From Trypanosoma brucei (lineage: Eukaryota): a DNA stretch of 64,000 nt. The stretch's first letter is position 1, and each line of letters opens with the position of its first letter. Shown in pieces: positions 8,316-57,500 of this stretch. The notes under the pieces are model-generated. The model searched no databases and had not been told where the DNA came from. It saw only the letters and a list, made by a program, of their open reading frames with translations. Position numbers and translations under genes: made by a program. Location: positions 2,816,001-2,880,000 of the forward strand of contig CH464491.1 in assembly GCA_000002445.1 (NCBI GenBank). The letters are read 5' to 3'.

Positions 8316-8353
<38 letters not shown>
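8316..8353. repeat. (GT)n microsatellite
   Basis: About 19 GT dinucleotides directly downstream of the kinesin-like gene. Confidence 0.95.
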
Positions 8354-8356
<3 letters not shown>

Positions 8357-13263: not shown

Positions 13264-13297
13264 TTCCAAAGCATTACGCAACTCCCACACACGCAAT

Positions 13298-20049: not shown

Positions 20050-20112
20050 ACAACAACGGCAACAGCAACAACAACAACAACAACAGTAACAATAATAATA
20101 ATAATATATTAT
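20050..20112. repeat. (CAA)n/(AAT)n trinucleotide repeat
   Basis: 'caacaacggcaacagcaacaacaacaacaacagtaacaataataataataat', within the 3-kb ORF-free region downstream of the PUF gene. Confidence 0.9.
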
Positions 20113-21546
20113 TATTATTATGTTATATTATATATTTTGTGTTATAAATGTTACTACTATTGTATAATATGTATACGTATGAAGAATATTTATACAATTA
20201 TATATCTCAATATGCTTTGAGTTTCCTTTCCTTACTTTCCCCCTCTATCCTTTCTTTTGTTTTTCCTTTCTATCAGTTTTTTTTTCTTGTATTATCCAAA
20301 ATTGGGGTACTCCTCTTTCATTTATTGATTTGTTAATGTATTTATGAACTTACAGTTTTTTTTTTAAAAAAATAAAAACGTTCATCTTTATATATTGAAA
20401 TATATCTTTATATATTTATTTATGTATTTTACCAGACAGTTTTGCCTCCTCTGCCCCCTCATTGTTTCAAGTACTGTTGTAATGCAATTTTGGTTTGCTT
20501 CCTTTTAACTTTTTTCCATAACAAATTTGATTTTTCTTTAACGCGAGAGAAACAAATATAATTTATAAATATGATATATAATTATCTGACTTAATTTGTT
20601 TTGTTTTGTTTTTTTAATGTTTCATATAGAAGGGGACACAACATTGATAAGTAAATAGATAAATAAATAATTTATTTCAAGTCTTTTGTTTGGTTTTTTT
20701 TTGAAAATGAAAAGCTATGAGTGAAACGGGGGGGGAAGCGGAGGGCTCACGGGACTATTTCGTCACTCCTTCTTTTTTTTTCAGTACAATTGTGACGAAA
20801 AGAAAAGAAAATGTAGGGAAGGGAGTCGGTAATATTAATATTTAAAAAAAAAAGGGAAATAGGAAATTTTTTTACCACTATTGTTGCTACTAATACCGGT
20901 GTTTGTTTGGTGCCAAACACCATCTGTTTCCATTTTAATTCTTTTGTGTTTATATGTTTTCTTTTTCTTTTGCCTCTTCTTTCCTACTTTATCCTCTTGT
21001 TTGTTTGACTTTTTTTTTCTCCCACTGATTCCTTCATGATCCACTTAGGCCCGTGAATTTGGACCGTTGTTTGTTGGCTCTTTTAGTTTGTTCGTTTGTT
21101 TGTTTGTTTGTTTTTGTTTTTGTTTTTGTTTTTTTTTGTTTTGCCTTTACTTTACTTTGCTTTGCTCGAGTGTTCCACCACAAGACGCCGCGCAGGTCGA
21201 CCAGCGCTGACAGTTTGCAGAAAAAAAAAGGAAATAAAATTTGTAAATAAAATAAAACAGAGTCACAAGAAGGAAACAAGGGGGAACGGCGTAGTGGAGG
21301 CAGCGGTATCACCGACTTAACCCACCTCTTCGTACTCACTTACTCCGTGTGTGTGTGTGTACGCGCGCGCTGTTGTATTTGTTTGTGTGTCTGGTTTATT
21401 AGAGGGGGAAACAAAAGGAAAGAAACCAACAAAAACAACAGGAAAACGCTGGAAGGCAAACTAACAGAGAGGCAACAGTAACAGTCAGATAAAAGAGGGG
21501 AAGGGAAAAGGAAAGTAGAAAGGAGGAATAACAAAAAAGGACAGGT

Positions 21547-37290: not shown

Positions 37291-37548
37291 GCATCGGTAC
37301 GGAGCGACGCCGACTGTCAGGCATTTGTTAACCACACTCGTCAACTACCGGAAGGTGAACAGCTGAACACACTTAGACTTCGTTGTCAACATTGCCACAC
37401 ATGTAGAATATACCTTATTCCCTTATTTCACCTCACCTCACACTACCCTTTGTTTGTTGTCTCGCCGCAGATTGTGAGCGGTTTTACGCACAAGTACTGA
37501 ACATTACAGAGGCGAAGCTGACTACAATGACAGAAACATCCCGTCGTG

Positions 37549-37590
37549 ACCTTATTTTCCTTGTGCTTTCACCCTTCTCTCCCTCTCTTA
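37549..37590 (+). promoter_or_regulatory. polypyrimidine tract + AG: putative trans-splice acceptor signal for RPSA copy 2
   Basis: Same sequence as 13222..13263, included in the duplicated unit. Confidence 0.6.
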
Positions 37591-37625
37591 GTTCCAAAGC
37601 ATTACGCAACTCCCACACACGCAAT

Positions 37626-38360
37626 ATGACCTCCGTCTCGTCCGGCGCTAAGGTCCTCCGAATGAAGGAGAGCGACGTGCAGAAGTTGCTCGCCATGCAC
37701 TGCCACCTCGGCACGAAGAACAGCAGCAGCGCCATGAAGAAGTACATCCACGGGCGCACAAGCGACGGCACAAATATCATTGATATCCACATGACGTGGG
37801 AGAAGCTGATCCTTGCCGCCCGTGTGATCGCTGCGGTGGAGAACCCACAGGATGTCACCGTCTGTTCCACACGCCTATTCGGGCAGCGCGCCATCTTCAA
37901 GTTTTCCCAACTCGTTGGGACATCGTTCCTCGGTGGCCGGTTTATTCCCGGTACATTCACCAACCAGATCCAGAAGAAGTTCATGCAGCCACGCGTTCTG
38001 GTTGTCACGGATCCCCGCACAGACCACCAGGCCCTACGTGAAGCGAGCCTTGTCAACATCCCCGTCATTGCTTTCTGCGACACGGACGCACCACTGGAGT
38101 TTGTTGACATTGCCATCCCGTGCAATAACCGTGGACGCCATTCTATCAGCATGATGTATTGGCTGTTAGCCCGGGAGGTGCTGAGGCTCCGTGGCACCAT
38201 CCCACGTAGTGTCCCATGGGAAGTGAAAGTGGACCTCTTCTTCTACCGTGACCCTGAAGAGGCATTGAAGCAAGAGGAGGCCACCGCCGCAGCTGAGGTC
38301 CATGAAGAAGCTGACGAGGGTTATGGATGGGTGGAGCGCGACAACACATGGGAGCAGTAA
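37626..38360 (+). CDS. RPSA: 40S ribosomal protein SA (uS2), copy 2 (identical to copy 1)
   Basis: The nucleotide sequence is identical to 13298..14032, as part of a 1.35-kb perfect duplication. The ATG at 37626 was chosen over the ORF-track start at 37527 for the same reason as copy 1. Confidence 0.9.
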
Positions 38361-39152
38361 GCGAATTGTTGCCTTGGGACAAGCACAGTTGTTTAACATA
38401 TATGTCTTGGTTGTTACCTCCGTATAATTTTTAATTTTTTTTCTTTTCGGTGACCGCGTGCGGCATCGCTAACTTTAGGGAGGAATGAGGCGCTGCGCAT
38501 TCGAAGGTGCTCTGCCGCTGAACAATGACTGCCTCATGACACTATACAACCAACACCTCATTATTGCCCTAAGCGTCGTTTGACAATATTGCATCTCCTC
38601 TACAATACCTGTTTCTGTGTGATATTTTGTATCTGATGTTATATTTCCTTCTTCTTTTCTCTTAACTTCCTTCATTTCCGTACCATCTATTGCAGCGACA
38701 AACCCAGGGCAGCGCCAACGGGTGGTGAGTGAGCACTGGACCCTGCCTAGAGGCCACTCAAAAGTAACTGTCAAGCGGTCGCGCAGGAAAGGCTAAAAGT
38801 AGGCAAGGAATTGTGCGTGCACCACTGTGTAATTGAAACTCATCGGTACTTGTATCAATCACGTATTGTCAAAGCTCATTTTTAGTGCTCAGGGGACAGC
38901 TGTTGTTAGTTGTTGATACAGATTTATTTGGTGAACTGAAGTGTAGTTTAAAACTATTTTTTTTTTCGAGTGTTAGCGCGGTAACTGAAGCAGTGAGCTT
39001 CACCGATTTTGTTGAGGGCACGGGAAGCTAAGCACCCCCTCCCCACCCTCGGGTCGTGTAATAGCCGAGGGCTATTGTAACAACGGCCCACACTGCACGT
39101 CGTCAAAAGGAGATCGGAGTATTTGGAGTAGCCCCCCCCAAAAAAAAAAAGA

Positions 39153-41602: not shown

Positions 41603-43072
41603 ATGGCATGTGTGCATGTCCTGGTGGGGCAGTGTGGCAACCAACTTGGCGCACACTTTTTGACCGCACTAACAGATGAGGCACGCCGCTGCAGTGATGA
41701 AGATTATGCATCCCAAATTTCGGCTGATCATTTCCGTCCGGCACCAACACAAAAGGGAATCAGACGAGGAGGCGTAAGTAACGGCAACTCCGGTCATCAT
41801 GACGAACCACCACTACCGCGCTCCGTCATGATTGATATGGAACCAAAAGTGGTCGAATCCGTCGTGACAGGCGTTAACGACGGAGGCGCATTCCAGGTAC
41901 GAGCGGAGCAGTGCGTCACCCGGGACGAGGGAAGCGGGAACAACTGGGCGTTTGGATACTATGAGCAAGGAAGAAGTAGATGCGATGAGATCGTGGAATC
42001 CTTACGCCGGCAGAGTGAGGCGCGTGGGGCAGCTCATTCCTTTCATATCGTGCACAGTGTTGCAGGTGGAACCGGCTCGGGGGTGGGATGTTTGGTGTCC
42101 GACGCCATCCGGGTGGAGTTCCCACGAGCGCTTCTCCTCCACACGGCGGTGTGGCCGTTTGCCACCGGTGAGGTCGTAACGCAATGGTACAACTGCGTGT
42201 TGGCTATGAGTGCCCTACGCGAGAGTGCGGATGCTGTTTTCGTGGCGCATAATGATGACTTTGACGTCAGCGCGAGACCTTTGCAGAAGGCTGTCAACGG
42301 CCGAACAAGCGAAGTGAGCTTCGATACTATAAATCACGAAATTGGCCGCCTCCTCCTCGACCTCCATCTTCCGAAGAAATTGTACCCGGTTCCCTCAACT
42401 GCACCCGAGAAAAAACCTCACCCACAGTCAACGTTTCCGGCTTCTAGAACAACTTCCAGTACGGGTGCTATGGCGTCGCTTAGATGCGGAGGCCTCACAG
42501 ACGTCGTGGAAGCGGTTGCACTAGACCCAGCACTGAAGTTCTTCTCTGGTTTAGCCCTTCCCGTGACTCCACCTGACAACCGTGTCGTTGCGCCAGAGGC
42601 AACGTCGTGGTACCCGCTGTTGTGTGAAGCATCTCGTCGAACCAGTGAGTTATTCGTACCGGCACCGTCTGGTGACAATAACACTAGCAACAACCTTTCT
42701 ACCGCATTCATCGAGCAGCGGCCCCTCCTATGGAGTTTGCGTGGGCCAGCTGCATGCAGTGAAGGTCTCGCGCATCTGCGGGAAGTGCTCTCGAGAAGTA
42801 CGCCGACCCCTGACGGACGGGAGTTGTATGTACCGCCCTCTGCACTCCTTCTGCATGAGGAGCGGCTTCTCGGACGGAGAGCCCATGTTTCAGTTTTTGG
42901 TCCTACACATAACATCGGACTTCGACTAGCTTCCGCACTCGAGAGGGCTGAAGATTTACTTCGCGTCAGTGCGTACGTTCACCATTTTAGTCGATACGGA
43001 GTAGGTGAAGAGGAGCTGCGGGACGCCGTTGTGCGTATGTGGGACACTGCTGCCGCATACGGGGCGGCTTGA
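41603..43072 (+). CDS. divergent tubulin-superfamily protein (delta-tubulin-like)
   Basis: The N-terminal 'MACVHVLVGQCGNQLGAHFLTAL' carries the tubulin GQCGNQ motif. 'RSVMIDMEPKVV' parallels the tubulin 'RAVLVDLEPGTM'. 'GGTGSGVG' is the tubulin GGGTGSG nucleotide-binding loop. There are long insertions relative to alpha/beta tubulin. Confidence 0.65.
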   Translation: MACVHVLVGQCGNQLGAHFLTALTDEARRCSDEDYASQISADHFRPAPTQKGIRRGGVSNGNSGHHDEPPLPRSVMIDMEPKVVESVVTGVNDGGAFQVRAEQCVTRDEGSGNNWAFGYYEQGRSRCDEIVESLRRQSEARGAAHSFHIVHSVAGGTGSGVGCLVSDAIRVEFPRALLLHTAVWPFATGEVVTQWYNCVLAMSALRESADAVFVAHNDDFDVSARPLQKAVNGRTSEVSFDTINHEIGRLLLDLHLPKKLYPVPSTAPEKKPHPQSTFPASRTTSSTGAMASLRCGGLTDVVEAVALDPALKFFSGLALPVTPPDNRVVAPEATSWYPLLCEASRRTSELFVPAPSGDNNTSNNLSTAFIEQRPLLWSLRGPAACSEGLAHLREVLSRSTPTPDGRELYVPPSALLLHEERLLGRRAHVSVFGPTHNIGLRLASALERAEDLLRVSAYVHHFSRYGVGEEELRDAVVRMWDTAAAYGAA

Positions 43073-43368: not shown

Positions 43369-43743
43369 TTGGAGTTTTTTAGGGTGCAGCAAGGTGAGAA
43401 GGAGGTTAAATACCCTCCCCTCGTTTTATCCGCATCCGTCATTTTCCCCCTTTTTCTTCACTTCTCTTCGCTCTGTGCCCTCTTCCTTTTACATATGTGC
43501 GTTTACGATAAGCAGCAAAGGAATAATTTACATATCCAAGTTTCAATCACCAAAGAACGAGAAGGTAGAGTAAACGAAATAGGTTTGAGCAGATTAGGAA
43601 AAAAGTTTAAAAAGGAAGTGAGAAGCAGACAAGCTTGCAACGTTTGCGTGAGAAATAGGGGAAAAAGTGAGGTAAAGAAGGGTGCCTACGGGGGGGGAAA
43701 AAAAAATTATATTTACACATATCACCTAGAAACTCCACATATC

Positions 43744-44595
43744 ATGTCAACCACCTGCACCAAGAATGAGCCTCGTGGCTTCCACCATGACCCATATGGC
43801 ACGCCCCTGCTTGATCAAGGGAGCGAGGAGCGCAAGAATAACGCCGCCCTGAACTTCTTCACGGCTGCCACCTACGCTGACGAGCACCAAAAGCAGGAAC
43901 AATACTCTTTAACAAACTTTGACACGTTAAGTTCTGTTGATCAGATGACTTCTACAGAAGGTGAAGGTGGCATATCCGATAACGGAACGGTGGAATCCAG
44001 CGGACCGTTTGTGGTGACACCAGTCCCTCAACCTACTTCTACAGTCGCCCTTGCCATGGCGTCATCAACTGTTATTGCTGCAGCCGCCTCAGTGGTTCGT
44101 TACGCCTCTGTCGACTTTCGCTTCGGTAGCGCATGGTTTGTGGCGCCGTTCCGTACTTCCGTTGGTGAGATCGTTGTGGTAGAGTATCCACATAACGGCA
44201 GTCTCCATGTTGGACTCGTAAGTTGCATCACAACGACGATCCCACCGACCTTCACAACACTGCGAGCAGCAGAGCAAGCGGGCCTTATGCCTACCGAAGA
44301 GGATCTCATGCAATACCCCCGTCTGGTGCGCCATGCTCGTGAATTCGACCGCCACACAAAGTTGGAGTTACGCACGCATGATCTCGCTTCACTCAGGTCT
44401 GCGCGCGAACTGGCTGAGGAAATGGGAGCACCCATCACATTTATCGATGCTGAGTGGCTGTTGGATCTGACAGCCGTAACGTTCCTGGTGCAGGTATGGG
44501 GCAACATGGAGCAAGTGGATCGCCTAGCTGATGAACTTGCCGCGCGCGAAGGAGCGGAGGTTGTGTTTACTTATCCTGCAGTGAGGTATGAGTAG
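43744..44595 (+). CDS. hypothetical protein with PSP1 C-terminal-like region
   Basis: The ATG at 43744 was chosen because the ORF-track N-terminus from 43369 translates low-complexity intergenic sequence. The C-terminal block 'EIVVVEYPHNGSLHVGLV...ITFIDAEWLLDLTAVTFLVQVWGNMEQVDRLADEL' weakly resembles the PSP1-C domain. Confidence 0.4.
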   Translation: MSTTCTKNEPRGFHHDPYGTPLLDQGSEERKNNAALNFFTAATYADEHQKQEQYSLTNFDTLSSVDQMTSTEGEGGISDNGTVESSGPFVVTPVPQPTSTVALAMASSTVIAAAASVVRYASVDFRFGSAWFVAPFRTSVGEIVVVEYPHNGSLHVGLVSCITTTIPPTFTTLRAAEQAGLMPTEEDLMQYPRLVRHAREFDRHTKLELRTHDLASLRSARELAEEMGAPITFIDAEWLLDLTAVTFLVQVWGNMEQVDRLADELAAREGAEVVFTYPAVRYE

Positions 44596-46204
44596 AAGCG
44601 GCAATCGTTGCATCCACATATTTTTCTCTTTGTTAGGTGTAGGTTGTTTCACTGTTGCTGTTGGTGTTGGTGTTGGTGTTGGTGTCTCTTCCTCCCTTCT
44701 TCGCAGTGATGGCTGTCCGATAATTTCCGCTCTCATTACTGTAAAGAAGTGGGTTTCTGCATCTGCATATATATATATATATATAAAAGGGCGGCAGAAA
44801 GAGCTAAGCGGAAAGGCATCACATACCTTTCTTTAAGGGGGGAGGGGGCTCACGCGAATGTTGGCAAGCAGGAGATACGTGTGAAAAAGAGCACACAGCT
44901 ACGTTTATACATGTATATTTATATAAATATGTGTTGCTTACATGCACAAAAGTGTACGGATTGAATTGCAGGAATAGCCGCGAAGGTAGGATTTAGGTGC
45001 GCGCCGGCCTCTAGAAACGGGAATTAGAGACGTTTCTTTTTTTTTTCAGTGAACAACGGTAAGGAACACGAATAAGATGCTCGCACGATGCGTGTGTGCT
45101 CGTGCGTCTAAATGCGTATGTATGCATATTTAACTGTGTAGCGTCGAAAGGAATGAAGAAAAAGGTAACGTGGGGCGAAGGTAAGAAAGTAATAATACCA
45201 CACTTTTATTCTTCCTCGATTTTGATGTCGTTGGTGTGCTTTGTTTGTTTGTTTGTCTTTTTTTTTTCTGTTGTTTGTTTGTTTTCCCATCTTAACTTTC
45301 TGACTTCACCAAATGGGGCCCACGTACGCTCCGCGACCAGACTTTCTTTTTTTTTTCTTTAGAGTTCGTTTAGGGCAGCGGTGGCGCCTCTTCATTTTTT
45401 TTTCTCCTCTTGTATTATTATTTTCCTTTTGTTTTCCTTGTCTGTGTGTTTTGTTTTTGTTTTATCTTTTTGGATTCATTCACTTGTTTCTCATTTCAGT
45501 TGTGCTTTGGTGGCGCCCACATCCACTGCAGGACGAGATGAGATGAATCATTAAAGTGAAAATGGTGAGGATTCGAGGAAAGGAGTTATAATAATAATAA
45601 TAATTGTTGTTATTATTATATTCCCAATGTTATTATTAATATTATTATTATTATTGTCATAATTATTATTGATGTTGTTTCCGGTTCAGGAAAAGGTAGC
45701 AATGAAAGGGATGTGAAAGAATGGTAGTAGAAGAGTGCTTCAGCTTGTTTTGTTTTGTTTTCTTTTCTTTTCTTTTTTTTTTTTGCTGTTTGCTCTCAAT
45801 ATATAATAGAGAGGGGAGGGGAGGGAAAAAAAAAAGAGGTAAAGAGGGAGGAACAACGAAAGAAAAAGGAATAACAAAATAAGGTGAGCAATTAATGAAC
45901 CACGGAATGAAGCAAAAAATAAAAAAACAAAGAAGTGAAAAGTGAAAAGGAAAGAAAAAGAAAAAATGACGTTCACGAAATTATTTACTCCATTGAGTGG
46001 GTCACATGATATATAAATGGATAAATGAAAAAGAGAGAAGTAAGGCGTAGCGATCAGCACATGCCTTCGTAGAGGTGCTGTGTTATATTAATTTATTCCC
46101 GCACAGCTCCACACAAGAACGGAGAGAAAAATGAAAAGAAAGGAAGTAGATAATAAAGAGGAAAAAGAAAATATTAATTTTGTGGTAAAAATAAATAAAT
46201 AAAT

Positions 46205-46207
<3 letters not shown>

Positions 46208-46246
<39 letters not shown>
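46208..46246. repeat. (TA)n microsatellite
   Basis: About 19 TA units inside the long ORF-free region. Confidence 0.95.
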
Positions 46247-46250
<4 letters not shown>

Positions 46251-46636
46251 TATAATTAAATAGAGGTGGGATCGGGGGGAAGAACAAAATGAATAAATTC
46301 CCAAAACATTTTCTTTTATTTACAATACTGCACTGCACAAATTTACAAAAATTATATATGTATTGATGTATATTTAATTATTCGCATCTGCAAGCAAAAA
46401 AAAAAATCACAATAAAGTGAAGAAGAAGAAGAAAAGTGGGCCAGGAAAAAAAGAAAAAGAAAAGAAAAGAAGGGTGGGAGAAACTGATGCCCATTTATTG
46501 TTGGAAATGTAGAAAGTAGAAAAGGACAAAGAAAAAAAAAAGGTAATATACATGTGTTTATATTTATATATGTCTTTAGGTACATTTTCTTTTCGCCCAC
46601 TTGTGTTCTTCCTTTCTTTCTTTATTTGCTGTGTTA

Positions 46637-46658
46637 TGTGTGTGTGTGTGTGTGTGTG
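46637..46658. repeat. (GT)n microsatellite
   Basis: GT run followed by (TTG)n. Confidence 0.9.
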
Positions 46659-46920
46659 ATTGTTGTGTTGTTGTTTGTTGTTGTTGTTTTTCCGGTTTCA
46701 CACTTATGCGTTTCCTGTCCCCTCCACTCAGTCCCTTTTTTTTCTGTGCGGTAACAAAAAAAAAAGAATAATGATTAAATAGTAAACAAATACAAAAAAG
46801 AAAAAAAAAGAAAGAAACTTACAATTGAGCAAAGACAAAAAAAACAAAAAATGGGGGATGCCAGTGAAAGGAGGTGGAAACTGAGAAATGAAACGAAAAA
46901 GAATTTGTTTTTTTTTTCAA

Positions 46921-46949
46921 TAACTAACTAATTAATTAATTAATTAATT
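46921..46949. repeat. (TTAA/TAAC)n simple repeat
   Basis: 'taactaactaattaattaattaattaatt'. Confidence 0.9.
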
Positions 46950-48009
46950 TTTTTTATTTGCTTTCGTGTAATAACGGAAGAGAAAGGAAACAAACAAAAA
47001 AAGAATGAGTTAATCAATCAATCACACACACATGCACACACATACACGCGGAAAAAGGGAAAGAAAGAGGGGGGAAAATGTGGAAATAATAATAATTTGT
47101 GATGATGACGACAATTACTATTGTTTATTACTAAAATCAACAACAACACGATGAACTAATGGATGAATGAATGGATGAATGAATGAAAAAGGAAAAAGAA
47201 AATGAAGGCGTGAGGAAAACACGTAACGGACAGAAATGTAATCGGAACCCACGAGTGAAGGTTTTGGGAAAGGAAAAAAAAATGAAAAAAATAAATAAAT
47301 TAGCACAAAAGGGGGGAAACGGAGATCACAAAAAAACTTATCATTTCTGTTTTTTTGTCATGTCACCAAAACACGAAGCGTGAGGAAATATTAACTCCTC
47401 TTTTTTTTCCCCCCTCCACCCCTTTTCTCTTTTGTGCATATGTGTTATATTATTTATTAATTCATTTACTGTTCCTCCTCTTCCTGTTTTATTCTACACA
47501 TTGTGCTCGTCCGTGTGTACTCTCGTCAACAGCTCACATCCACCATTTTCATCACCAGCCGGTTTCCTTTTTTTTTTTCCTTATCCCTTCGGTTCTTTTT
47601 GCTTGGTTTTATCTTTATTCCATTTTTTTTGTTTTGTTTTGTTTTCTTTTAGAGCAGCTCACCTGGACGCGTCTTCCAGTTTTCATTTATTCCTTTTAAA
47701 TCCCTTCGCCTTTTTTTTTGCTCGATTTTGTCCGTACTGAATTGAACTAGATTTTGCATTAATCCGTTGCTAAGATGAAAAAACAAAACAAAACGAAATA
47801 AGGAAGTGGATGTGATAGGGGAAAGGGGGAAAGGGGATCCAACGAGACGCGCATGGCAGCCGTAAACACAATTGAAGGGAGGTTGAATGGATAATAAATA
47901 ATAATAAAAAAAAGAAAGGAAGAAAGGAAGGAAGGAAAGGAAGTGCAAGTATAAGTGAGTGGGTGGGGAGAGGAAGGGAAAAAGAAAAAGAAAAAGGAAC
48001 AGTGAGGAT

Positions 48010-48024
<15 letters not shown>

Positions 48025-48042
<18 letters not shown>

Positions 48043-48079
48043 TGTGCGTGCGTGCGTGTGTGTGTGTGTGTGTGTGTGT
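48025..48079. repeat. compound (TA)n-(GTGC)n-(GT)n microsatellite
   Basis: 'atatatatatatatatatgtgcgtgcgtgcgtgtgtgtgtgtgtgtgtgtgt'. Confidence 0.95.
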
Positions 48080-49893
48080 TTGCGTAATAAACGCATGTCT
48101 CACCCAATTCGTTTCTTTTTTCTTTTTTTATATCCTTTTCTTACAATCTACGCGTAACACATGCCAAGGTGTTCATATACTCATTCATGTATTTACTCTT
48201 ATTTATATTGATTCGTTTATATGACCCACTCCAGCACTCCTTTCATCCTTTGAGTTTAACACGCTGCTCTTTGGAGTTCACCCTTTCTCTCTCCCCCCCC
48301 CCTCCCCCTCCCACACACTCACACACACCTTCTTTTTTTTTTAAATTTGCGTGTGTGGTTTCCTTTTATTTTCCTATATATATAAATAAATAATATCTTT
48401 GTTGACAATAACAGTCGGTGGGGTAGGTTTCCCGTTTTGTTCGGTATGAGAGGCGCCGCTGTAATGTCTGTTGCGCATTCTCTTTCTTTCTCTCTCATTT
48501 GCTCTCGCAACCACCAGGCTTTGTCGTCATTGTTGTATTTTTAGTTTAGTTTAGTTCTACGACGCTTTTTTTTTTCTGGTTTTTGTTTCATTACTGCACT
48601 CTGATATGTGTGCATTCGTATATGCGTGTAATGTTCGATACCGGACGCTGTTGATTTAAAGTGTATTTGTTATTTTTTTTTCTTTTAAAAAACCTGTAAT
48701 GTTCCTGGCACTTCCCGCATCCTAATGCCCTAACCCTGCCAATGATAGAATGTTGGCGGCAAGGTGTAGGGGAATGAAGAAATAAAGAAAAGGGAGAAGA
48801 AGAAGGAAAAGAAAAGAAAAGGAAAAGGAATAGAGGTCTACGGGGAAGGGAAAACACTCATATGTATATAAATAAACACAAACGAATATATTCATATTTA
48901 TTTACATGAAGGTGTATAGAGAGGGCTTTGGTCTGATCATTTGGAAGAAATGAATGAAAAGACGTTTTGAGAGGTATCCTTCTCCCTTTTCTTTTTTCGT
49001 TTAATTTCTTCTTCATAATTCTGTCGGCGTTCTCTCCTTCTCTTTTTTTCCGGTTCCTAACGCAGATACGCGCCATAATGAAACTGAATTAGCATCGGCT
49101 GCACATAAGGAACAACGGTGAAAGGAGGCGAGTAAGAATGAGTGAATGAGAAAGCAGAATGGAGGCGTTGTCACGCGGATCTGTGTAGACCTCATTCTTT
49201 CCTTTCTTTTGTTTTGTGTTTGTTTGTTGTTGGTGATGATGTGGTGACGTTCTGCTCCCTTTCGTTTGTTTCATCACCTGTTTTTGTCACGGTCACTTTC
49301 TCTCTCTTTTTTTTTTGCTTTTGGAAGACACCACCGCCAAATCACGCCGCAAATATGGCAGTTTTGTATCGAAAACACCCGGGCGCGAGAGAATGTAGAA
49401 CCCCTTCCCCACAGTAGGAATGAATTTGCAATATGTGGAAGAAGAAAATTTTCCTCGAAAGAGGAAGAGATATTGAGTAAAAGAATGCAGAGAGAAGGAG
49501 AGATAGAGGGAGAAAAGCGAAAAAGAAAAAGAAAAGGGCAGCTTCAGCCGGTCAATAACACTTTCGCACACCGCCACAAACCCACAAGCGCAGCACATAC
49601 ACGTGGCTTCAAGTATGTATAGGAAATGCGTGTGACGCTATTTTACAGTTGAAGCCCCGGGTGAGCGGCGGGGGAGGTATTTTCATCCTCTCCCTCTGCT
49701 GTTTTCTTTTTCATTTTTTCCTGTTATCTTTGCTTGTGCTTTACTATTTATAAACCCTCTATTACTTGACTCACCACCTATACTTCTACAGCAGTTGCCT
49801 CTGTTGTTGCCGTCGGTGGGCCCGCATACAGAAGAAACGCACTCGCCAACCGCAGTGTCAATCTCCTCACCATCTGTTGTTTGCCTTCCAGGC

Positions 49894-49927
<34 letters not shown>
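49894..49927. repeat. compound (TA)n-(GT)n microsatellite
   Basis: 'atatatatatatatatatatgtgtgtgtgtgtgt', about 150 nt upstream of the J-domain gene. Confidence 0.95.
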
Positions 49928-50078
49928 ATCAATACCCGTACGCATGTGCATTTGTGCACCGTTTAGATGTTACCTTTACCTCATTCCTTTTACTTCTGTT
50001 GGGTTGCCTTGCCTCATCCTCACTCTTTAGCGGGGCGGCTACTGAAGCAGAGGGTACCGTAGTACATATCATAGCCGA

Positions 50079-51068
50079 ATGTTTCGTTTCAACCAAACCC
50101 TCCGTGCAGCACTGGCAACGCCAAAGGATATCGCAGCTGCTCTCCGTGTACTAGGATTGGACACCAACAGCGCGAATATCAGTAGCGAGGCAGTAAGAGC
50201 ACAGTATCTGAGACTTGCGCGGCTCCATCACCCAGATATCAGCAGTGGTGATGATCAGAAGATGAAGATTATCAACACAGCGTATGAGATGCTTCAGAGC
50301 AGCGGCGCTTTAAACCCAAAGGCCGCCAGTACGTCAGGTACGGCGGATGAAGACAAGGAAACAAAACCAGGCGACACTGTAGAAAATGCAAATGGTGGTC
50401 GGTTCTCCCCTAAGGCTGGACGACGACGGCGAAGGGTGCCGGATGATTTTGCGGACGGTGACAGGTGGGACATGAAGTCGACGCTCGAGTGGCGTGCTAT
50501 GACAATGATGGGAGCCGGGTCCGTGAGCGAGGAGGAGCTCCGCAACCCCGCAAATCACCCGTTCAGCCACAGTAAATTTTTTTCGTTCGAGGAGGACGTA
50601 ACGATCTACCGTATGATACGCGGCGGCGCGACGATACGCCAAGTGGCTCGTACACTAGGGAAGGCCCCAACATTTGTGGAGCGGCGCCTGCAGAACGCGC
50701 AGTTCAAACAGCGGGTGCAATATGTCATGCGGCATGAGAAGCGTCAAGGGCTGAAGGAGCGAGCTTCGGGGACGGGGGCGAACTCTGGTGGCTTTAACAT
50801 GACAGAGCGGCTGTTTGGGACAACTACCGGCGGGAACAGCCGCGGGCGGGAAGGTCACCGGAAGAAGGAGTGGGAACCAACCGCTCTCGATGGTGAGGTT
50901 CCTGCTCACTTCGCGGATATGAGTCTCGAGGAGAAGGGCCTCCACGCCCGACTAATGCAAGAGGAAAGGCGGCAGCAGCAACTTCCCTCCTGGGGCGTAG
51001 TGGCGTCGAAGGTGGGAAGGTCGTATTCAAATTACGCGCGATTCACTGGGAATTACAAAAAGACGTGA
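50079..51068 (+). CDS. J-domain (DnaJ) protein with SANT/Myb-like helix-turn-helix region
   Basis: J-domain region 'AVRAQYLRLARLHHPDISSGDDQKMKIINTAYEMLQ', with the HPD motif. 'FSFEEDVTIYRMIRGGATIRQVARTLGKAPTFVERRL' resembles a SANT/Myb repeat. Confidence 0.6.
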   Translation: MFRFNQTLRAALATPKDIAAALRVLGLDTNSANISSEAVRAQYLRLARLHHPDISSGDDQKMKIINTAYEMLQSSGALNPKAASTSGTADEDKETKPGDTVENANGGRFSPKAGRRRRRVPDDFADGDRWDMKSTLEWRAMTMMGAGSVSEEELRNPANHPFSHSKFFSFEEDVTIYRMIRGGATIRQVARTLGKAPTFVERRLQNAQFKQRVQYVMRHEKRQGLKERASGTGANSGGFNMTERLFGTTTGGNSRGREGHRKKEWEPTALDGEVPAHFADMSLEEKGLHARLMQEERRQQQLPSWGVVASKVGRSYSNYARFTGNYKKT

Positions 51069-51558: not shown

Positions 51559-54500
51559 ATGAGTGCACAGTTCAAAAAAGAAAATATTAAAGGGGAGGAA
51601 GGGGAGGGAAGGAAGGGAAAACCATTGCACAAGATGGCTCCCGGTGGCTGCGATGCGATCTTGCAGGAGGCGCTATTGTTGGGTTCATATGCTGATTTCT
51701 GGAAACTTGCCACCGGTTATACAAAGGCGCTATGCAATGTATACGTCGCCCCAAACCCCTATCCAACTCCTGGTGGAGGAAATGCAGCCGATGGACACAA
51801 CCCGAACTCAGCTACCCAAAATATGGTAAAAGTGACGACGACGGTACCTTGTAGCCTTAGGACCTTTGCCACGTTCATCACAGCGCCACGAAGCGTGCGA
51901 TACTGCGAGGACAACGTCATGTTTTGCGATATCATTGAAAGAGATAACAAGACAAAGTTGTTTCACACCGCATACGCAGGCGATCCTCCATGTGATGTGG
52001 TTGCCGTGCATATAACGGCGGCGTACAAAGTGCCGGAGAACACCACCGAAAACAATCCCTTGTGCAAGTTTGTGGCAAGCCTTCGTGACGATAAACGCCG
52101 GGGCCACGTGCCACAACCCTCGTCAACGATATTCGTTTACGCTATGAAGAGTGCTGAGCACCCCAAGACACCTCCTTCGCCGCCGTACGTGCGTATGCGC
52201 TTTCACTTATCTGCCTTTATCGCCTATGAAATACCAGGGCCACTCGTTCGAGTGGTGTTCGTTCACGCACCAGGAGATCGTACTCCAAAGATGGTTGACC
52301 GGTGCATAACAAAAATGGTCTGTGTGCGGAACTTATGCCAAATGCTTGAGTGGCTTAACACAGGTGGCCCTCTCACGGAACCTGTCATCTGGGAGAATCA
52401 GCGGCCACAAGAAACGCCAAATGCACACTCCGTTGGGGCCGAAAACACACGCGAGCCCAATCCTCTCGTTGAGGAGCCATCAGATGTAGTGTTACAAGGG
52501 GACAACCCATCCTCTGCTCCAGGCCGTGTATTTCAAACATTGTTTGCCCTGCATGCTTCAGCCGCGTGGCGTTTGGTCCTTCAACATGAAGGATGCACGG
52601 TGGAGGAATGCGAAGCACGATGTTGCTTTCCTGCACCGGCTTTTCTAAAGGCTTACCGTTTCGCGACAACTATCGCATGTTCTCTGGATATTTTCCGCCG
52701 ATTAGTGAGCGACCCGATGCAGTTGCACAGGTACGACCCGAGTGTAGAGAAAGTAGAGCTCCTCCACTCACAAAAGGGTGAGGATACCGTTCACATACAT
52801 TTCAAGCAACTGTCTCATTCTGCTCCCAAGCAGGATGCCTGCATTCTAACATCTAACGCACTCTTGCAACCCGACGAGGCACACCGATGGCGTTTATACC
52901 AGCTGACAGACAACATAAATGTTGTTTACGTGCAGAATGGTATTCAAAGCACTGAAATTCCTGCTGCTGGCGCGTGCGACCGACAGGTAGTGTATGCAAT
53001 GGGATACGTCGCCATCCCATCAGTGAAGCGACAACCCACGGGAGCTGGGGATGGCAATGAAGGCAGTGAGGCGCTGCGGGTCTACCATGTCGTCTGCGTG
53101 GACAACAACACTGCTTCATTCGCGGATAAGCAGCTTGTGACTATTCGTCAGCATTTTTTCCGCCTTACTGGAATACGAAATTTGTGCGATGAAGCGAAGA
53201 GCAAACCTCCTACCTGTTCTTTACCTCCTCACACAACTCGGGATGTTAATGATTTCTTCGAGAGCGGTACGTTAGCAGGATTTACAGAGGTGGAAACGCT
53301 TGAAGACGCCTCCCTTGAAAGAACAAGCAGCACGAATAATGTACGTAGACAGCTCGATTTAGTCGATGGGATGGAAGGCTACACCAGCCACGCGACTGCG
53401 CATGTGGACACCATGATGAACTCTTCTTCATTGGAGAAGCTTCACCAGTTTCTCTTGCACTTTGCACCCCATTATTGTATAGAGCACAAACAAAGTGAGC
53501 TCGACAACAAACTTGTTCCAGCAGCTGCTGCACTGCAACCCTCACCATTCACCGAGCAACAGCAAATATCCCCTTCAGTTTGGCAAGCACACGCGCCAAC
53601 ACCCGATCAGCAGAAACAGGAAGTGCAAACTGCTCAACTGGTGCAGCGTGGAAAAGTAAGTGCACCTCCAGCTATTCAGCAGAGTGGAGGAAAGGCAGCT
53701 TTGACATGGGACACCAGTGTGGAAGAGGTAGTGCCTGACAAGCAGAAACAGGAAGTGCAAACTGCTCAACTGGTGCAGCGTGGAAAAGTAAGTGCACCTC
53801 CAGCTATTCAGCAGATTGGAGGAAAGGCAGCTTTGACATGGGACACCAGTGTGGAAGAGGTAGTGCCTGACAAGCAGAAACAGGAAGTGCAAACTGCTCA
53901 ACTGGTGCAGCGTGGAAAAGTAAGTGCACCTCCAGCTATTCAGCAGATTGGAGGAAAGGCAGCTTTGACATGGGACACCAGTGTGGAAGAGGTAGTGCCT
54001 GACAAGCAGAAACAGGAAGTGCAAACTGCTCAACTGGTGCAATGTGGAAAAGTAAGTGCACCTCCAGCTATTCAGCAGATTGGAGGAAAGGCAGCTTTGA
54101 CATGGGACACCAGTGTGGAAGAGGTAGTGCCTGACAAGCAGAAACAGGAAGTGCAAACTGCTCAACTGGTGCAACGTGGAAAAGTAAGTGCACCTCCAGC
54201 TATTCAGCAGAGTGGAGGAAAGGCAGCTTTGACATGGGACACCAGTGTGGAAGAGGTAGTGCCTGACAAGCAGAAACAGGAAGTGCAAACTGCTCAACTG
54301 GTGCAACGTGGAAAAGTAAGTGCACCTCCAGCTATTCAGCAGAGTGGAGGAAAGGCAGCTTTGACATGGGACACCAGTGTGGAAGAGGTAGTGCCTGACA
54401 AGCAGAAACAGGAAGTGCAAACTGCTCAACTGGTGCAACGTGGAAAAGTAAGTGCACCTCCAGCTATTCAGCAGATTGGAGGAAAGGCAGCTTTGACATG

Positions 54501-57500
54501 GGACACCAGTGTGGAAGAGGTAGTGCCTGACAAGCAGAAACAGGAAGTGCAAACTGCTCAACTGGTGCAGCGTGGAAAAGTAAGTGCACCTCCAGCTATT
54601 CAGCAGATTGGAGGAAAGGCAGCTTTGACATGGGACACCAGTGTGGAAGAGGTAGTGCCTGACAAGCAGAAACAGGAAGTGCAAACTGCTCAACTGGTGC
54701 AGCGTGGAAAAGTAAGTGCACCTCCAGCTATTCAGCAGATTGGAGGAAAGGCAGCTTTGACATGGGACACCAGTGTGGAAGAGGTAGTGCCTGACAAGCA
54801 GAAACAGGAAGTGCAAACTGCTCAACTGGTGCAACGTGGAAAAGTAAGTGCACCTCCAGCTATTCAGCAGATTGGAGGAAAGGCAGCTTTGACATGGGAC
54901 ACCAGTGTGGAAGAGGTAGTGCCTGACAAGCAGAAACAGGAAGTGCAAACTGCTCAACTGGTGCAACGTGGAAAAGTAAGTGCACCTCCAGCTATTCAGC
55001 AGAGTGGAGGAAAGGCAGCTTTGACATGGGACACCAGTGTGGAAGAGGTAGTGCCTGACAAGCAGAAACAGGAAGTGCAAACTGCTCAACTGGTGCAACG
55101 TGGAAAAGTAAGTGCACCTCCAGCTATTCAGCAGAGTGGAGGAAAGGCAGCTTTGACATGGGACACCAGTGTGGAAGAGGTAGTGCCTGACAAGCAGAAA
55201 CAGGAAGTGCAAACTGCTCAACTGGTGCAACGTGGAAAAGTAAGTGCACCTCCAGCTATTCAGCAGAGTGGAGGAAAGGCAGCTTTGACATGGGACACCA
55301 GTGTGGAAGAGGTAGTGCCTGACAAGCAGAAACAGGAAGTGCAAACTGCTCAACTGGTGCAATGTGGAAAAGTAAGTGCACCTCCAGCTATTCAGCAGAG
55401 TGGAGGAAAGGCAGCTTTGACATGGGACACCAGTGTGGAAGAGGTAGTGCCTGACAAGCAGAAACAGGAAGTGCAAACTGCTCAACTGGTGCAATGTGGA
55501 AAAGTAAGTGCACCTCCAGCTATTCAGCAGAGTGGAGGAAAGGCAGCTTTGACATGGGACACCAGTGTGGAAGAGGTAGTGCCTGACAAGCAGAAACAGG
55601 AAGTGCAAACTGCTCAACTGGTGCAATGTGGAAAAGTAAGTGCACCTCCAGCTATTCAGCAGATTGGAGGAAAGGCAGCTTTGACATGGGACACCAGTGT
55701 GGAAGAGGTAGTGCCTGACAAGCAGAAACAGGAAGTGCAAACTGCTCAACTGGTGCAACGTGGAAAAGTAAGTGCACCTCCAGCTATTCAGCAGAGTGGA
55801 GGAAAGGCAGCTTTGACATGGGACACCAGTGTGGAAGAGGTAGTGCCTGACAAGCAGAAACAGGAAGTGCAAACTGCTCAACTGGTGCAACGTGGAAAAG
55901 TAAGTGCACCTCCAGCTATTCAGCAGAGTGAAAAAGGGGCTATCGACAGAAAAGAAAAGAACGTTCATATGAAGAATTTTATGCAGGCGATTCACACTGA
56001 AGGCGAGCCCGTTCATAGGAGAAGAGATGATGAAAGACTGGGGTTGCAACCATTACAGAGAAAGAAAGGTTTCCAATCCATCCCAACCAATCTTGAAGAG
56101 GAAGCATCCCCAGTACAGGTGATCGGTGAAGAATCAAAACGCAATAGTGGGGAACCGCAACCAGTTGGGGGGCAAGGGGATTGCTTGGCGCGAGCAGTGC
56201 GGGAGGGACAGGAGAAATTAACACGACTTACGGGGGGTTGGTGTAAAGGACGCATAGAGAAAACTTCTGCTTTCGGAGAAAAAGATAGCCCCGTACAAGA
56301 AGTTCAGGTAAAGGAGAATATCCCGCAAGTAACCTGTGGCTTGAGTGTGTGGCCCACGCCAGATGCATTGAAAGTTAGGAGGGAAGGAATGAGCGTCTTG
56401 AAATTGTCACAGCGGCTGGAGCTTCGCCCCGCTCGGCAGGAACCACGGCGGCAGGAAGAGTTGATATGGCCCATGAAGGGAGGATGGCAAGGATCTTCGG
56501 GTTCAGTAAGTGATGGGAATGAAGGATTGTTATTGCCGATGGGATCGCGGTCTGTGGATACAGATGACGTATGGGAAGAGCGCGTTAAATTATCTGACGG
56601 AACGTTCGGCCGGAAGGTGAACAACAAAATTCAGGTAAACGTCCGGGCGTGTCGTAACATGCCAGCGGCAACGCAAAAAAAACATATGCTGTCTATTCAG
56701 ATCAGCACATCTTCTACGGAGGCGCAAACATGGTTGGTACCTCTGACCCTCAATCCCATCTTCCCCCATCAAACAATTTTACTGGACGAACCAGAAGATG
56801 ACACGGTCAACGTTACAGCGATAGTAAAAACTGAAGATGATCGCATGAAGCGACTGGGGGAAGCAGTTGTTTCGCTGCGCTATTTGCATGTGTTAGATTC
56901 GTATACCCGCTGGATTTCGCTGATATGTAATGTAGGCACAAGCGATGCTTTCGAATGTGGTGACGTTTGCATTACTTTCCGTCGCGGTACAGAAGAAGGA
57001 CCCAATGGTGTCGTCTCAATTAATGGAAAGCAATGCGAACAGCAGCAACTGCAGTGGGGGGAAGCCGAAAGGACACAAGAAGAGGAGAAACTGCGGCGTT
57101 ATGTCCGTGATGTGCTTGTATCCGCGGGGAATGCAAACCTCCACTTGTTGGAGTGGTTAGTAGGGAACTGCTACCGTAAAACACCAGGGGAAATAGATGC
57201 GTTTATTAGGCGGTATAGGAAAGATGATACAATAATGCTAACTGTGTTTGAGGTGTGCGGACTTAGAACGGAAGTCGGGGTCCCACTACTGCGTCCGGTG
57301 CCTTGCCACGTTTTGGTTGAAACAAGCAGAGGATCGTGTACAACATCCCCCGTAAACCTTCAAGGACAAGCAGCTCCGCTGAACATGGTGTTTCACCTGG
57401 TAATAGGGGTGAACGAACCCATTCGTCTCATCGTATTTACCGGCGACACCGCGGTTGGTGAAACGGTTATTACCACTGCCCAAGATGGCACGCGCACTCG

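What the first reader, a model, noticed from the sequence alone, without database searches (positions are those of the whole stretch)
44596..50078. 5.4-kb ORF-free, low-complexity region with alternating strand-asymmetric purine/pyrimidine blocks inside a unidirectional gene array
There is no credible ORF between the PSP1-like gene and the J-domain gene. The ORF-track hits here are translations of homopolymeric or pyrimidine tracts. The region is AT-rich and packed with microsatellites: (TA)n, (GT)n, (GTGC)n, (TTAA)n, (GAAT)n. On the + strand it alternates between purine-rich blocks (about 45.8–46.5, 46.75–47.35, 47.77–48.0, 49.4–49.55 kb) and pyrimidine-rich blocks (about 46.55–46.75, 47.4–47.75, 48.1–48.7, 48.97–49.35, 49.68–50.0 kb). 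This is far longer than typical intergenic spacers in the window, which run 0.3–1.7 kb. It could be an unusually long UTR. It could also be a cluster of small RNA or short-peptide genes that each use a polyY tract, or an internal transcription start or termination region within the polycistron, of the kind marked by histone variants or base J in trypanosomatids.
Basis: seen in the sequence. Interest (0 to 1): 0.5.

Follow-up and report, generated by a model that had tools for sequence, protein, structure and literature searches.

The report
Long regulatory 3' UTR in trypanosome
The 5.5-kb "empty" stretch is almost entirely the already annotated, unusually long 3' untranslated region of a Trypanosoma brucei gene, and its alternating purine-rich and pyrimidine-rich blocks match a published class of regulatory UTRs, so it is real but ordinary.

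Summary
Window 44596-50078 is a 5,483-bp spacer with no credible ORF. It is AT-rich, full of microsatellites and built of alternating purine and pyrimidine blocks (14x the block variance of shuffles).

The window is T. brucei brucei TREU927 chromosome 11. The flanking genes are Tb927.11.10940 (a conserved hypothetical with only a sub-threshold PSP1 match) and, by gene order, Tb927.11.10950 (J-domain protein J69).

Trenaman et al. 2024 (PMC11405848) list the UTR of Tb927.11.10940 as Tb927_11_v5.1:2918238-2923505. That maps to window 44596-49863: 5,268 nt, or 96% of the flagged region. The remaining 215 nt are the poly(A)/trans-splice spacer and a short J69 5' UTR.

The same paper describes this class: 3' UTRs longer than 2 kb, dense in A-rich polypurine tracts (which raise translation) and U-rich polypyrimidine tracts (proposed to mask them).

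I found no tRNA, no Rfam family, no conserved ORF, no CDS-like codon usage and no GT-rich promoter signature. A long spacer (3.0-8.8 kb) sits at this syntenic position in T. vivax, T. cruzi, T. rangeli and Leishmania, with no sequence conservation.

Verdict: already known, low interest.

The parts
43744..44595 (+). CDS of Tb927.11.10940, a conserved hypothetical protein. It is 283 aa from this ATG; the TREU927 GenBank model starts at 43495 and gives 366 aa. This is the gene that owns the long 3' UTR.
   Evidence: Exact-sequence look-up gives the T. brucei, T. b. gambiense and T. equiperdum hypothetical proteins. It lies next to delta tubulin, which is Tb927.11.10930. The Pfam PSP1 match is sub-threshold at 17 bits against a cut-off of 27.
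44596..49863 (+). Annotated 3' UTR of Tb927.11.10940 (5,268 nt). It is AT-rich, dense in microsatellites, and alternates between A-rich polypurine and U-rich polypyrimidine blocks.
   Evidence: Trenaman 2024 Supplementary Data 1 gives UTR_Start 2918238 and UTR_End 2923505 on Tb927_11_v5.1. The offset of 2,873,642 is confirmed by three other UTR starts that fall exactly one base after window ORF stops (14033, 18499, 38361); a fourth, Tb11.01.2730, maps to 60033, three bases after the stop at 60030.
45748..45866 (+). Example of predicted pairing between a polypyrimidine and a polypurine tract: the U-rich tract (about 45748-45784) folds onto the A/G-rich tract (about 45803-45866) as a long imperfect hairpin.
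   Evidence: strand folding gives an MFE of -41.9 kcal/mol, z = -3.14 against 200 dinucleotide shuffles, with 1 shuffle folding as well. The same hairpin gives a sub-threshold mir-1282-like Rfam hit (38 bits against 107), which is a low-complexity artefact.
46276..47327 (+). UTR fragment recovered in the positive arm of the published reporter screen. It is mostly a polypurine block.
   Evidence: Chromosome coordinates 2919918-2920969, fully contained in the UTR. Positive-screen reads were 7, 4, 5, 5, 7 and 8 against 0 in the negative screen; log2FC 2.78, FDR 0.052, no downstream splice site. Counts are low, so this is borderline.
47880..48940 (+). Second UTR-internal library fragment from the reporter screen, essentially unselected.
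   Evidence: Chromosome coordinates 2921522-2922582. Reads were 2, 1, 1, 0, 0 and 0 against 0; FDR 0.15.
49864..50030 (+). Processing spacer between the two mRNAs. It contains the (TA)10(TG)7.5 microsatellite at 49894-49927 and the polypyrimidine tract at about 49972-50028, followed by the AG at 50029-50030. That AG is the predicted spliced-leader acceptor of the J69 mRNA.
   Evidence: The AG at 50029/50030 has the highest upstream pyrimidine content of any AG in 49640-50078, at 0.78 over 40 nt. The annotated UTR end at 49863 lies 167 nt upstream. Inferred rather than mapped here.
50031..50078 (+). Inferred 48-nt 5' UTR of the J-domain gene, assigned by gene order to Tb927.11.10950 (J69).
   Evidence: Use of the AG at 50029/50030 predicts 48 nt. 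The Tb927.11.10950 row in an Antwi 2016 supplementary table carries the value 48 in what looks like a 5'-UTR-length column. I could not read the column header, so this is tentative.
50079..51068 (+). CDS of J-domain protein J69 (329 aa), assigned to Tb927.11.10950 from its position next to Tb927.11.10940 rather than from a direct ID look-up.
   Evidence: 100% identical to TREU927 XP_829159.1. Pfam DnaJ scores 31.8 bits. The Leishmania orthologue is named J69/JDP69.

Best explanation
About 96% of the region (44596-49863) is the 3' untranslated region of the Tb927.11.10940 mRNA. It is one of the long-tail 3' UTRs of T. brucei, about 14 times the median length.

RNA polymerase II reads through it as part of the polycistron. 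The mRNA is then cleaved and polyadenylated near 49863. This step is coupled to spliced-leader addition at the AG at 50029/50030 downstream of the last polypyrimidine tract, which creates the short 5' UTR of the J69 mRNA.

The low-complexity content is the regulatory payload. According to the published reporter screen, A-rich polypurine tracts raise translation in a dose-dependent way. U-rich polypyrimidine tracts lower expression. They are proposed to base-pair with the purine tracts and mask them conditionally, for example by life-cycle stage or temperature.

The many internal polypyrimidine tracts are potential cryptic trans-splice signals. They must normally be ignored, a job attributed in the literature to DRBD18-type binding proteins.

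What is shown: the extent of the UTR (published annotation), the composition and the folding potential. What is inferred: the regulatory effect on this particular mRNA, the masking and the suppression of internal sites.
For: Identity of the locus:
- The delta-tubulin and J69 proteins are 100% identical to the TREU927 entries.
- Delta tubulin is Tb927.11.10930.

Annotation:
- The UTR of Tb927.11.10940 is 2918238-2923505 (+) on Tb927_11_v5.1.
- Three other UTR starts in the same table map exactly one base after window stop codons, and a fourth maps three bases after.
- The annotation set was informed by nanopore direct-RNA, SL and poly(A) reads.

Precedent for the length:
- 3' UTR median 388 nt, mean 622 nt; range up to about 6,000 nt.
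- The RBP10 3' UTR is 7.3 kb and the DRBD12 mRNA is 8.4 kb.

The class:
- 3' UTRs longer than 2 kb with more than 20 polypurine and more than 20 polypyrimidine motifs per kb are described, together with the masking model.
- By a stricter proxy, this UTR has 42.7 A-rich purine 9-mers and 34.4 T-rich pyrimidine 9-mers per kb. Short intergenic DNA has 10.7 and 9.3, and shuffles have about 1.

Folding:
- 37% of 200-nt windows fold with z < -2, against 3% of CDS windows.
- The Y/R hairpin at 45748-45866 has z = -3.1.

Reporter data:
- The internal fragment 46276-47327 was enriched in the positive arm of the screen.

Nothing else is there.

The region is real:
- Independent assemblies of T. equiperdum, T. 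b. gambiense and another Trypanozoon genome have a 5,415-5,437-bp spacer here.
- The T. equiperdum copy aligns along its whole length at 96.9% identity.

The second long spacer in the window (18499-20965) is likewise an annotated 2,467-nt UTR, of Tb927.11.10810.
Against: - I saw the annotation only as two coordinates in a supplementary table, not the reads. I cannot tell whether this UTR was one of the 4,703 manually revised ones.
- I cannot tell whether the full-length isoform is the major one, or whether shorter polyadenylated isoforms dominate.
- Reporter support is weak: single-digit read counts, FDR 0.052 for one fragment, and no effect for the second.
- With dinucleotide shuffles, a second R/Y junction folds only at z = -1.55. 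(TA)n self-complementarity contributes to the sliding-window result.
- No data on stage-specific expression or translation of Tb927.11.10940 could be retrieved.
Confidence: 0.88

Rival explanations
1. The region is a composite transcription product. The coding mRNA mostly ends at an upstream internal poly(A) site. The distal kilobases are released as one or more separate trans-spliced, polyadenylated non-coding RNAs (UTR-internal transcripts or lncRNAs) made from the internal polypyrimidine-AG signals.
For: - There are 19 strong polypyrimidine tracts on the sense strand inside the gap, 3.5 per kb.
- Kolev 2010 documents loci with a full-length transcript plus a shorter ORF-containing transcript and a UTR-internal non-coding transcript.
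- DRBD18 depletion unmasks exactly such sites in more than 200 long-UTR mRNAs.
Against: - The published annotation gives a single UTR to 49863.
- No separate gene ID appears in the published table between .10940 and the next listed gene, and no paper text mentions an intermediate ID.
- This reading complements a long UTR rather than excluding it.
Confidence: 0.2
2. The region is an internal (non-divergent) RNA polymerase II transcription start or termination region within the gene array, marked by histone variants or base J.
For: - It is a long ORF-free stretch.
- It has local GT-rich sequence at 45.0-45.7 kb (G+T 0.63-0.64) and several (TG)n or (TTG)n tracts.
- GT-rich elements can drive Pol II initiation and H2A.Z deposition.
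- Internal initiation sites exist.
Against: - Only 57 non-divergent start regions were counted genome-wide.
- Overall G+T is 0.533 against 0.510 for the window. The other annotated long UTR is equally or more GT-rich, at 0.551 with a peak of 0.644.
- There are no tRNA or other small RNA genes.
- The region is annotated as a continuous UTR.
Confidence: 0.04
3. The region hides unannotated genes: snoRNAs or other small RNAs, or short peptide-coding ORFs, each served by its own polypyrimidine tract.
For: - Kolev 2010 added 1,114 new transcripts, some coding for small conserved peptides.
- There are 37 ATG-ORFs of at least 25 aa in the gap.
Against: - No Rfam family at gathering score. E-value mode gives only miRNA-like or low-complexity hits far below threshold.
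- No tRNA.
- No tandem array of longer units typical of trypanosome snoRNA clusters.
- tblastx against the syntenic spacers of T. vivax, T. cruzi, T. rangeli and L. mexicana finds only translated microsatellites.
- The best ORF codon score (0.035) is below every real CDS.
- No Pfam hits.
Confidence: 0.04
4. The region is decayed mobile-element or pseudogene debris, or an assembly artefact.
For: - Low-complexity DNA is prone to mis-assembly.
- The T. rangeli spacer carries a 455-bp copy of the delta-tubulin 5' region.
Against: - Three other independent Trypanozoon assemblies carry a 5.4-kb spacer at this position. The T. equiperdum copy is collinear at 96.9% identity, with only 16 substitutions and microsatellite-length indels.
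- There are no dust-filtered repeats shared with the rest of the window.
- There is no protein-level similarity to anything in the syntenic spacers.
Confidence: 0.01

Closest known systems
Long polypurine- and polypyrimidine-rich 3' UTRs of T. brucei (Trenaman, Tinti, Wall and Horn 2024, PMC11405848). Examples are RBP10 (>7 kb), RDK2, CFB2 and GPI-PLC.
   Same: - Same organism and same position (stop codon to poly(A) site).
- Longer than 2 kb.
[quoted passage not shown]
- A fragment scored in the positive arm of the same screen.
- This very UTR is listed in that paper's data table.
   Different: - Tb927.11.10940 is not one of the paper's named exemplars.
- Its bloodstream-form versus procyclic translation ratio was not retrievable here.
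- Reporter counts are low.
- The encoded protein is an uncharacterised conserved hypothetical, not a known RNA-binding protein or kinase.
DRBD18-protected long 3' UTRs with internal polypyrimidine tracts (Bishola Tshitenge et al. 2022, PMC9380746)
   Same: A multi-kb 3' UTR that contains many internal polypyrimidine tracts followed by AG. These would be competent trans-splice and polyadenylation signals if they were not suppressed.
   Different: Whether DRBD18 binds this mRNA, or whether its processing changes on DRBD18 depletion, is unknown. The supplementary tables were not available.
UTR-internal transcripts and lncRNAs of T. brucei (Kolev 2010, PMC2936537; Guegan 2022, PMC9200285)
   Same: Long 3' UTR regions can also yield separate spliced, polyadenylated non-coding RNAs.
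   Different: I could not obtain any evidence for such a transcript at this locus.
Non-divergent transcription start regions with GT-rich promoters (Wedel 2017, PMC5579346)
   Same: Lies within a unidirectional gene array and contains some GT-rich tracts.
   Different: No overall GT enrichment. Annotated as UTR. Chromatin marks were not testable.

Membership tests
Trypanosome mRNA 3' UTR | Lies on the sense strand between the stop codon of a CDS and a mapped poly(A) site, and is annotated as part of that mRNA | tested here: met
   A published table gives the UTR of Tb927.11.10940 as chr11 2918238-2923505, which is window 44596-49863. It starts one base after the stop codon at 44595. The annotation was informed by long-read RNA, SL and poly(A) reads. 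I saw the coordinates only, not the primary reads.
Trypanosome mRNA 3' UTR | The poly(A) site lies a short distance upstream of the polypyrimidine tract and AG used for trans-splicing of the next mRNA | tested here: met
   The UTR end at 49863 lies 167 nt upstream of the best polyY-AG (AG at 50029/50030; 0.78 pyrimidine in the 40 nt upstream). The splice site itself is predicted. It is supported only tentatively by the value 48 in the Antwi 2016 table.
Long pPuT+pPyT-rich regulatory 3' UTR class (Trenaman 2024) | 3' UTR longer than 2 kb | tested here: met
   5,268 nt.
Long pPuT+pPyT-rich regulatory 3' UTR class (Trenaman 2024) | More than 20 A-rich polypurine and more than 20 U-rich polypyrimidine motif hits per kb (FIMO p<0.01) | tested here: met
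   Proxy only. Exact all-purine 9-mers with at least 6 A occur at 42.7 per kb, and all-pyrimidine 9-mers with at least 6 T at 34.4 per kb. The proxy is probably stricter than FIMO at p<0.01, which I did not verify; the paper's motif matrices were not re-run.
Long pPuT+pPyT-rich regulatory 3' UTR class (Trenaman 2024) | Positive regulatory activity of UTR fragments in the reporter assay | tested here: inconclusive
   Fragment 46276-47327: log2FC 2.78, FDR 0.052, single-digit reads. Fragment 47880-48940: no signal. Fragment 49181-50606: log2FC 1.8, FDR 0.12.
Long pPuT+pPyT-rich regulatory 3' UTR class (Trenaman 2024) | mRNA translated more than 3-fold better in bloodstream forms | not testable with these tools
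   No ribosome-profiling values for Tb927.11.10940 could be retrieved.
Non-divergent Pol II transcription start region | GT-rich sense strand | tested here: not met
   G+T is 0.533 against a window mean of 0.510. Only a local peak of 0.64 at 45.0-45.7 kb, equalled by the other annotated UTR at 19.5 kb.
Non-divergent Pol II transcription start region | H2A.Z/H2B.V/H4K10ac enrichment and 5'-triphosphate RNA starts | not testable with these tools
   No ChIP or primary-transcript data were accessible. The supplementary files of Wedel 2017 held no chr11 coordinates.
snoRNA / small RNA gene cluster | Match to a known RNA family or tRNA, or a tandem array of repeat units carrying the genes | tested here: not met
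   No Rfam match at gathering score. Only low-complexity sub-threshold hits. No tRNA. Tandem repeats are all microsatellites with periods of at most 24 bp.
Protein-coding short ORFs | ORF conserved in related species, or with CDS-like codon usage | tested here: not met
   tblastx between the syntenic spacers finds only translated microsatellites. The best codon score is 0.035, below all 25 CDS at 0.040-0.221. No Pfam hit.
PSP1 C-terminal domain protein (label given to the upstream gene) | Pfam PF04468 at or above the gathering score (27 bits) | tested here: not met
   17.2 bits (T. brucei) and 19 bits (T. vivax). No hit in the T. cruzi, T. rangeli or L. mexicana orthologues.

The most novel reading that the evidence does not exclude
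A very long spacer downstream of this gene is an ancestral feature kept by selection across Trypanosomatidae. It measures 5.4-5.5 kb in Trypanozoon, 6.4 kb in T. vivax, 3.0 kb in T. cruzi, 3.3 kb in T. rangeli and 8.8 kb in L. mexicana, and in each sampled locus it is the longest spacer. It shows no detectable sequence conservation. That would mean selection acts on length and low-complexity texture, or on UTR-internal non-coding RNAs processed from the internal polyY-AG sites, and not on specific motifs.
Probability: 0.2. Interest if true: 0.35.

Novelty: already known. Interest (0 to 1): 0.1.

Why it matters
It matters little as a discovery. The region is already annotated as a 3' UTR in the reference genome, and its sequence texture matches a published cis-regulatory class.

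It is a clean natural example of a 5-kb UTR with sharply alternating polypurine and polypyrimidine blocks, and it sits at a position where every sampled trypanosomatid has a long spacer. That could make it a convenient test case for two things:
- the proposed purine-tract masking model;
- how internal trans-splice signals are silenced.

For the genome scan, the lesson is that long ORF-free, microsatellite-rich, block-structured spacers in trypanosome polycistrons should be read as long 3' UTRs by default.

Tried and rejected
- Rfam at gathering score on the whole window and in E-value mode on the region gave nothing real. The mir-1282, mir-297 and SCARNA7-like hits are low-complexity hairpins or microsatellites far below threshold.
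- The tRNA scan found none.
- The bacterial promoter/terminator scan matched chance expectation and is irrelevant to a trypanosome.
- Pfam on the eight longest gap ORFs gave nothing.
- blastn and tblastx of the spacer against the syntenic spacers of five other species found only microsatellite matches. The T. cruzi L004 spacer is mostly N and was discarded.
- The self-comparison for dispersed repeats or mobile elements found none.
- The T. brucei versus T. equiperdum substitution profile has too little divergence (16 substitutions in 5.2 kb) to reveal constraint.
- Literature searches for Tb927.11.10940 and Tb927.11.10950 in main texts found nothing.
- Supplementary tables gave no usable data in several papers. 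Nothing was held for the two DRBD18 papers and the Guegan lncRNA paper. The Clayton 2019 review, Wedel 2017 and Kolev 2010 (old-style IDs guessed) had no matching entries.
- The Logan contigs for J69 (L011, L012) start 8 nt upstream of the predicted acceptor AG and carry no spliced leader, so they say nothing about processing.
- My first folding scan timed out and was redone.
- One 'CDS' with a negative codon score was my own out-of-frame slice, not a real outlier.

Full report
**1. What the window is**

All large ORFs lie on the + strand. The delta-tubulin protein (41603-43072) and the J-domain protein (50079-51068) are 100% identical to the Trypanosoma brucei brucei TREU927 entries EAN80045 and XP_829159. 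Delta tubulin is Tb927.11.10930 (PMC3985637).

UTR coordinates published for neighbouring genes fix the offset at chromosome position minus 2,873,642:
- Tb927.11.10790 maps to window 14033
- Tb927.11.10810 maps to 18499
- Tb927.11.10910 maps to 38361
- Tb11.01.2730 maps to 60033

The first three fall exactly one base after a window stop codon. The fourth falls three bases after the stop at 60030. The window is therefore Tb927_11_v5.1 at about 2,873,643-2,937,642. The flagged gap lies between Tb927.11.10940 and the J-domain gene. By its position next to .10940, I take that gene to be Tb927.11.10950.

**2. The observation**

It is confirmed in every detail.
- The gap is 5,483 bp (44596-50078) with GC 0.371.
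- All the named microsatellites are present.
- The claimed purine blocks have purine fractions of 0.69-0.81. The claimed pyrimidine blocks have 0.25-0.40.
- The block structure is far beyond chance. The variance of purine fraction per 100 bp is 14.1 times that of shuffles, against about 2 times in coding sequence.

Tract densities per kb are similar in the two spacers. The flagged region is therefore the extreme of a local type, not a unique object.

**3. What is not there**

- No tRNA.
- No Rfam family at gathering score in the whole window.
- In E-value mode, only far-sub-threshold hits to miRNA or scaRNA models. These sit on a polyU/polyA hairpin and on the (TA)n(TG)n repeats.
- No Pfam domain in the longest gap ORFs.
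- No gap ORF with CDS-like codon usage. The best per-codon log-likelihood is 0.035, below all 25 CDS of the window at 0.040-0.221.
- No dispersed repeat shared with the rest of the window.

The region is not an assembly artefact. Three other Trypanozoon assemblies have a 5,415-5,437-bp spacer at this position. The T. equiperdum copy aligns end to end at 96.9% identity, with only 16 substitutions plus microsatellite-length indels.

**4. What it is**

Supplementary Data 1 of Trenaman et al. 2024 (PMC11405848) lists the UTR of Tb927.11.10940 (+) as 2918238-2923505. That is window 44596-49863. It is 5,268 nt long, starts one base after the stop codon and covers 96% of the flagged interval.

The paper's UTR set was refined in Apollo using nanopore direct-RNA reads and reads carrying the spliced leader or a poly(A) tail.

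Of the remaining 215 nt, the AG at 50029/50030 has the most pyrimidine-rich upstream 40 nt (0.78) and would give a 48-nt 5' UTR. The Tb927.11.10950 row of an Antwi 2016 table carries the value 48 in what appears to be the 5'-UTR column. I could not read the header, so this point is tentative. The annotated poly(A) end lies 167 nt upstream of that AG. As far as I know, that fits the usual coupling of polyadenylation to downstream trans-splicing.

The other long spacer in the window is likewise an annotated 2,467-nt UTR, of Tb927.11.10810.

**5. How unusual it is**

T. brucei 3' UTRs have a median of 388 nt and a mean of 622 nt, with a range up to about 6,000 nt in the 2010 data. RBP10 has a 7.3-kb 3' UTR and the DRBD12 mRNA is 8.4 kb. 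So 5.3 kb is in the far tail, but it has precedent.

**6. How it most likely works**

Trenaman et al. report three things:
- U-rich polypyrimidine tracts lower expression.
- 3' UTRs longer than 2 kb with more than 20 of each motif per kb are over-represented among bloodstream-form up-translated mRNAs.

They propose that pyrimidine tracts base-pair with purine tracts and mask them, with conditional unmasking.

By a stricter proxy, this UTR has 42.7 A-rich purine 9-mers and 34.4 T-rich pyrimidine 9-mers per kb. Short spacers have 10.7 and 9.3, CDS has 3.2 and 0.8, and shuffles have about 1.

Local folding is consistent with purine/pyrimidine pairing. 37% of 200-nt windows fold with z < -2, against 3% of CDS windows. 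The Y/R junction at 45748-45866 forms a long imperfect hairpin with z = -3.1 against dinucleotide shuffles. A second junction is weaker at z = -1.55, and (TA)n self-pairing contributes to the window statistic.

One internal fragment (46276-47327, mostly a purine block) was enriched in the positive arm of the reporter screen, with low counts (log2FC 2.78, FDR 0.052). A second fragment (47880-48940) was not enriched.

The 19 strong sense-strand polypyrimidine tracts are potential cryptic trans-splice signals. The literature attributes their silencing in long UTRs to DRBD18 binding. Whether that applies here is inference.

**7. Rivals**

- Composite transcript. A shorter mRNA plus UTR-internal non-coding RNAs is a documented phenomenon elsewhere and is not excluded. 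It would complement the UTR reading, not replace it.
- Internal transcription start or termination region. This has no sequence support: G+T is 0.533 against 0.510, there are no Pol III genes, and only 57 non-divergent start regions were counted genome-wide. Chromatin data were not available.
- Hidden small-RNA or peptide genes, and debris or artefact readings. These are contradicted by the tests in section 3.

**8. Comparative context**

The gene order delta tubulin, Tb927.11.10940 orthologue, spacer, J69 recurs in the other Trypanosoma loci, followed by the large repeat protein. The L. mexicana locus shows the Tb927.11.10940 orthologue, the spacer and J69.

| Species | Spacer length |
|---|---|
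| T. brucei TREU927 | 5,483 bp |
| Other Trypanozoon assemblies | 5,415-5,437 bp |
| T. vivax | about 6,411 bp |
| T. cruzi | about 3,030 bp |
| T. rangeli | 3,264 bp |
| L. mexicana | 8,778 bp |

In each locus this is the longest spacer. There is no nucleotide or translated similarity between species beyond microsatellites.

Block structure is present everywhere, at 5-14 times shuffles. High polypurine density is seen only in the T. brucei group and partly in T. cruzi. A long 3' UTR for this gene may therefore be ancestral, but transcript ends in the other species were not examined.

**9. Verdict**

- Observation: confirmed.
- Interpretation: the 'unusually long UTR' option is right. The small-gene and start/termination options are unsupported.
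- Novelty: already known. The region is an annotated UTR and a member of a published class.
- Interest: low, about 0.1.

Noticed in passing
window 13210-14565 and 37538-38894: A 1,357-bp segment is duplicated at 99.9% identity, 24 kb apart. It carries the two copies of the 40S ribosomal protein SA (Ribosomal_S2) gene, Tb927.11.10790 and Tb927.11.10910. Both have identical annotated 198-nt 3' UTRs.
   Followed up: partly
window 18499-21546: This is a second long spacer (3,048 bp) with the same microsatellite and purine/pyrimidine block texture. Its first 2,467 nt are the annotated 3' UTR of Tb927.11.10810. A fragment at its 3' end was among the strongest positive reporter hits in the listed rows, with log2FC 7.1.
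   Followed up: partly
window 53609-55930 (inside ORF 51559-60030): The 2,823-aa ORF downstream of J69 (old ID Tb11.01.2730) contains a near-perfect tandem array of 17.6 copies of a 132-bp (44-aa) unit, with 99% matches. The T. b. gambiense gene model is 2,427 aa, and another Trypanozoon assembly splits the gene in two. This suggests copy-number variation or collapse of the repeat in assembly.
   Followed up: no
L008 (T. rangeli) 4741-5195 versus 425-879: Inside the T. rangeli spacer there is a 455-bp copy, 99.8% identical, of the region spanning the upstream flank and first 60 codons of that species' own delta-tubulin gene. It was called there as a 131-aa gene. It is either a very recent segmental duplication or an assembly artefact, since the contig contains Ns.
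   Followed up: partly
L004 (T. cruzi GCA_003719155.1) 6091-10000: The apparent 3.9-kb spacer in this T. cruzi assembly is 3,118 bp of N, a scaffold gap. The two other T. cruzi assemblies give about 3.03 kb.
   Followed up: yes
window 43369-44595: The start codon of Tb927.11.10940 is ambiguous. The mechanical ORF is 408 aa from a TTG, the TREU927 GenBank model is 366 aa (from 43495), and the gambiense and equiperdum models are 283 aa (from 43744). Similarity to the orthologues of other species begins at residue 1 of the 283-aa form, which favours the short model.
   Followed up: partly
window 50079-51068: Besides its J domain, the J69 protein gives a sub-threshold helix-turn-helix match (Pfam HTH_38, 21 bits against a cut-off of 27, residues 169-203).
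   Followed up: no
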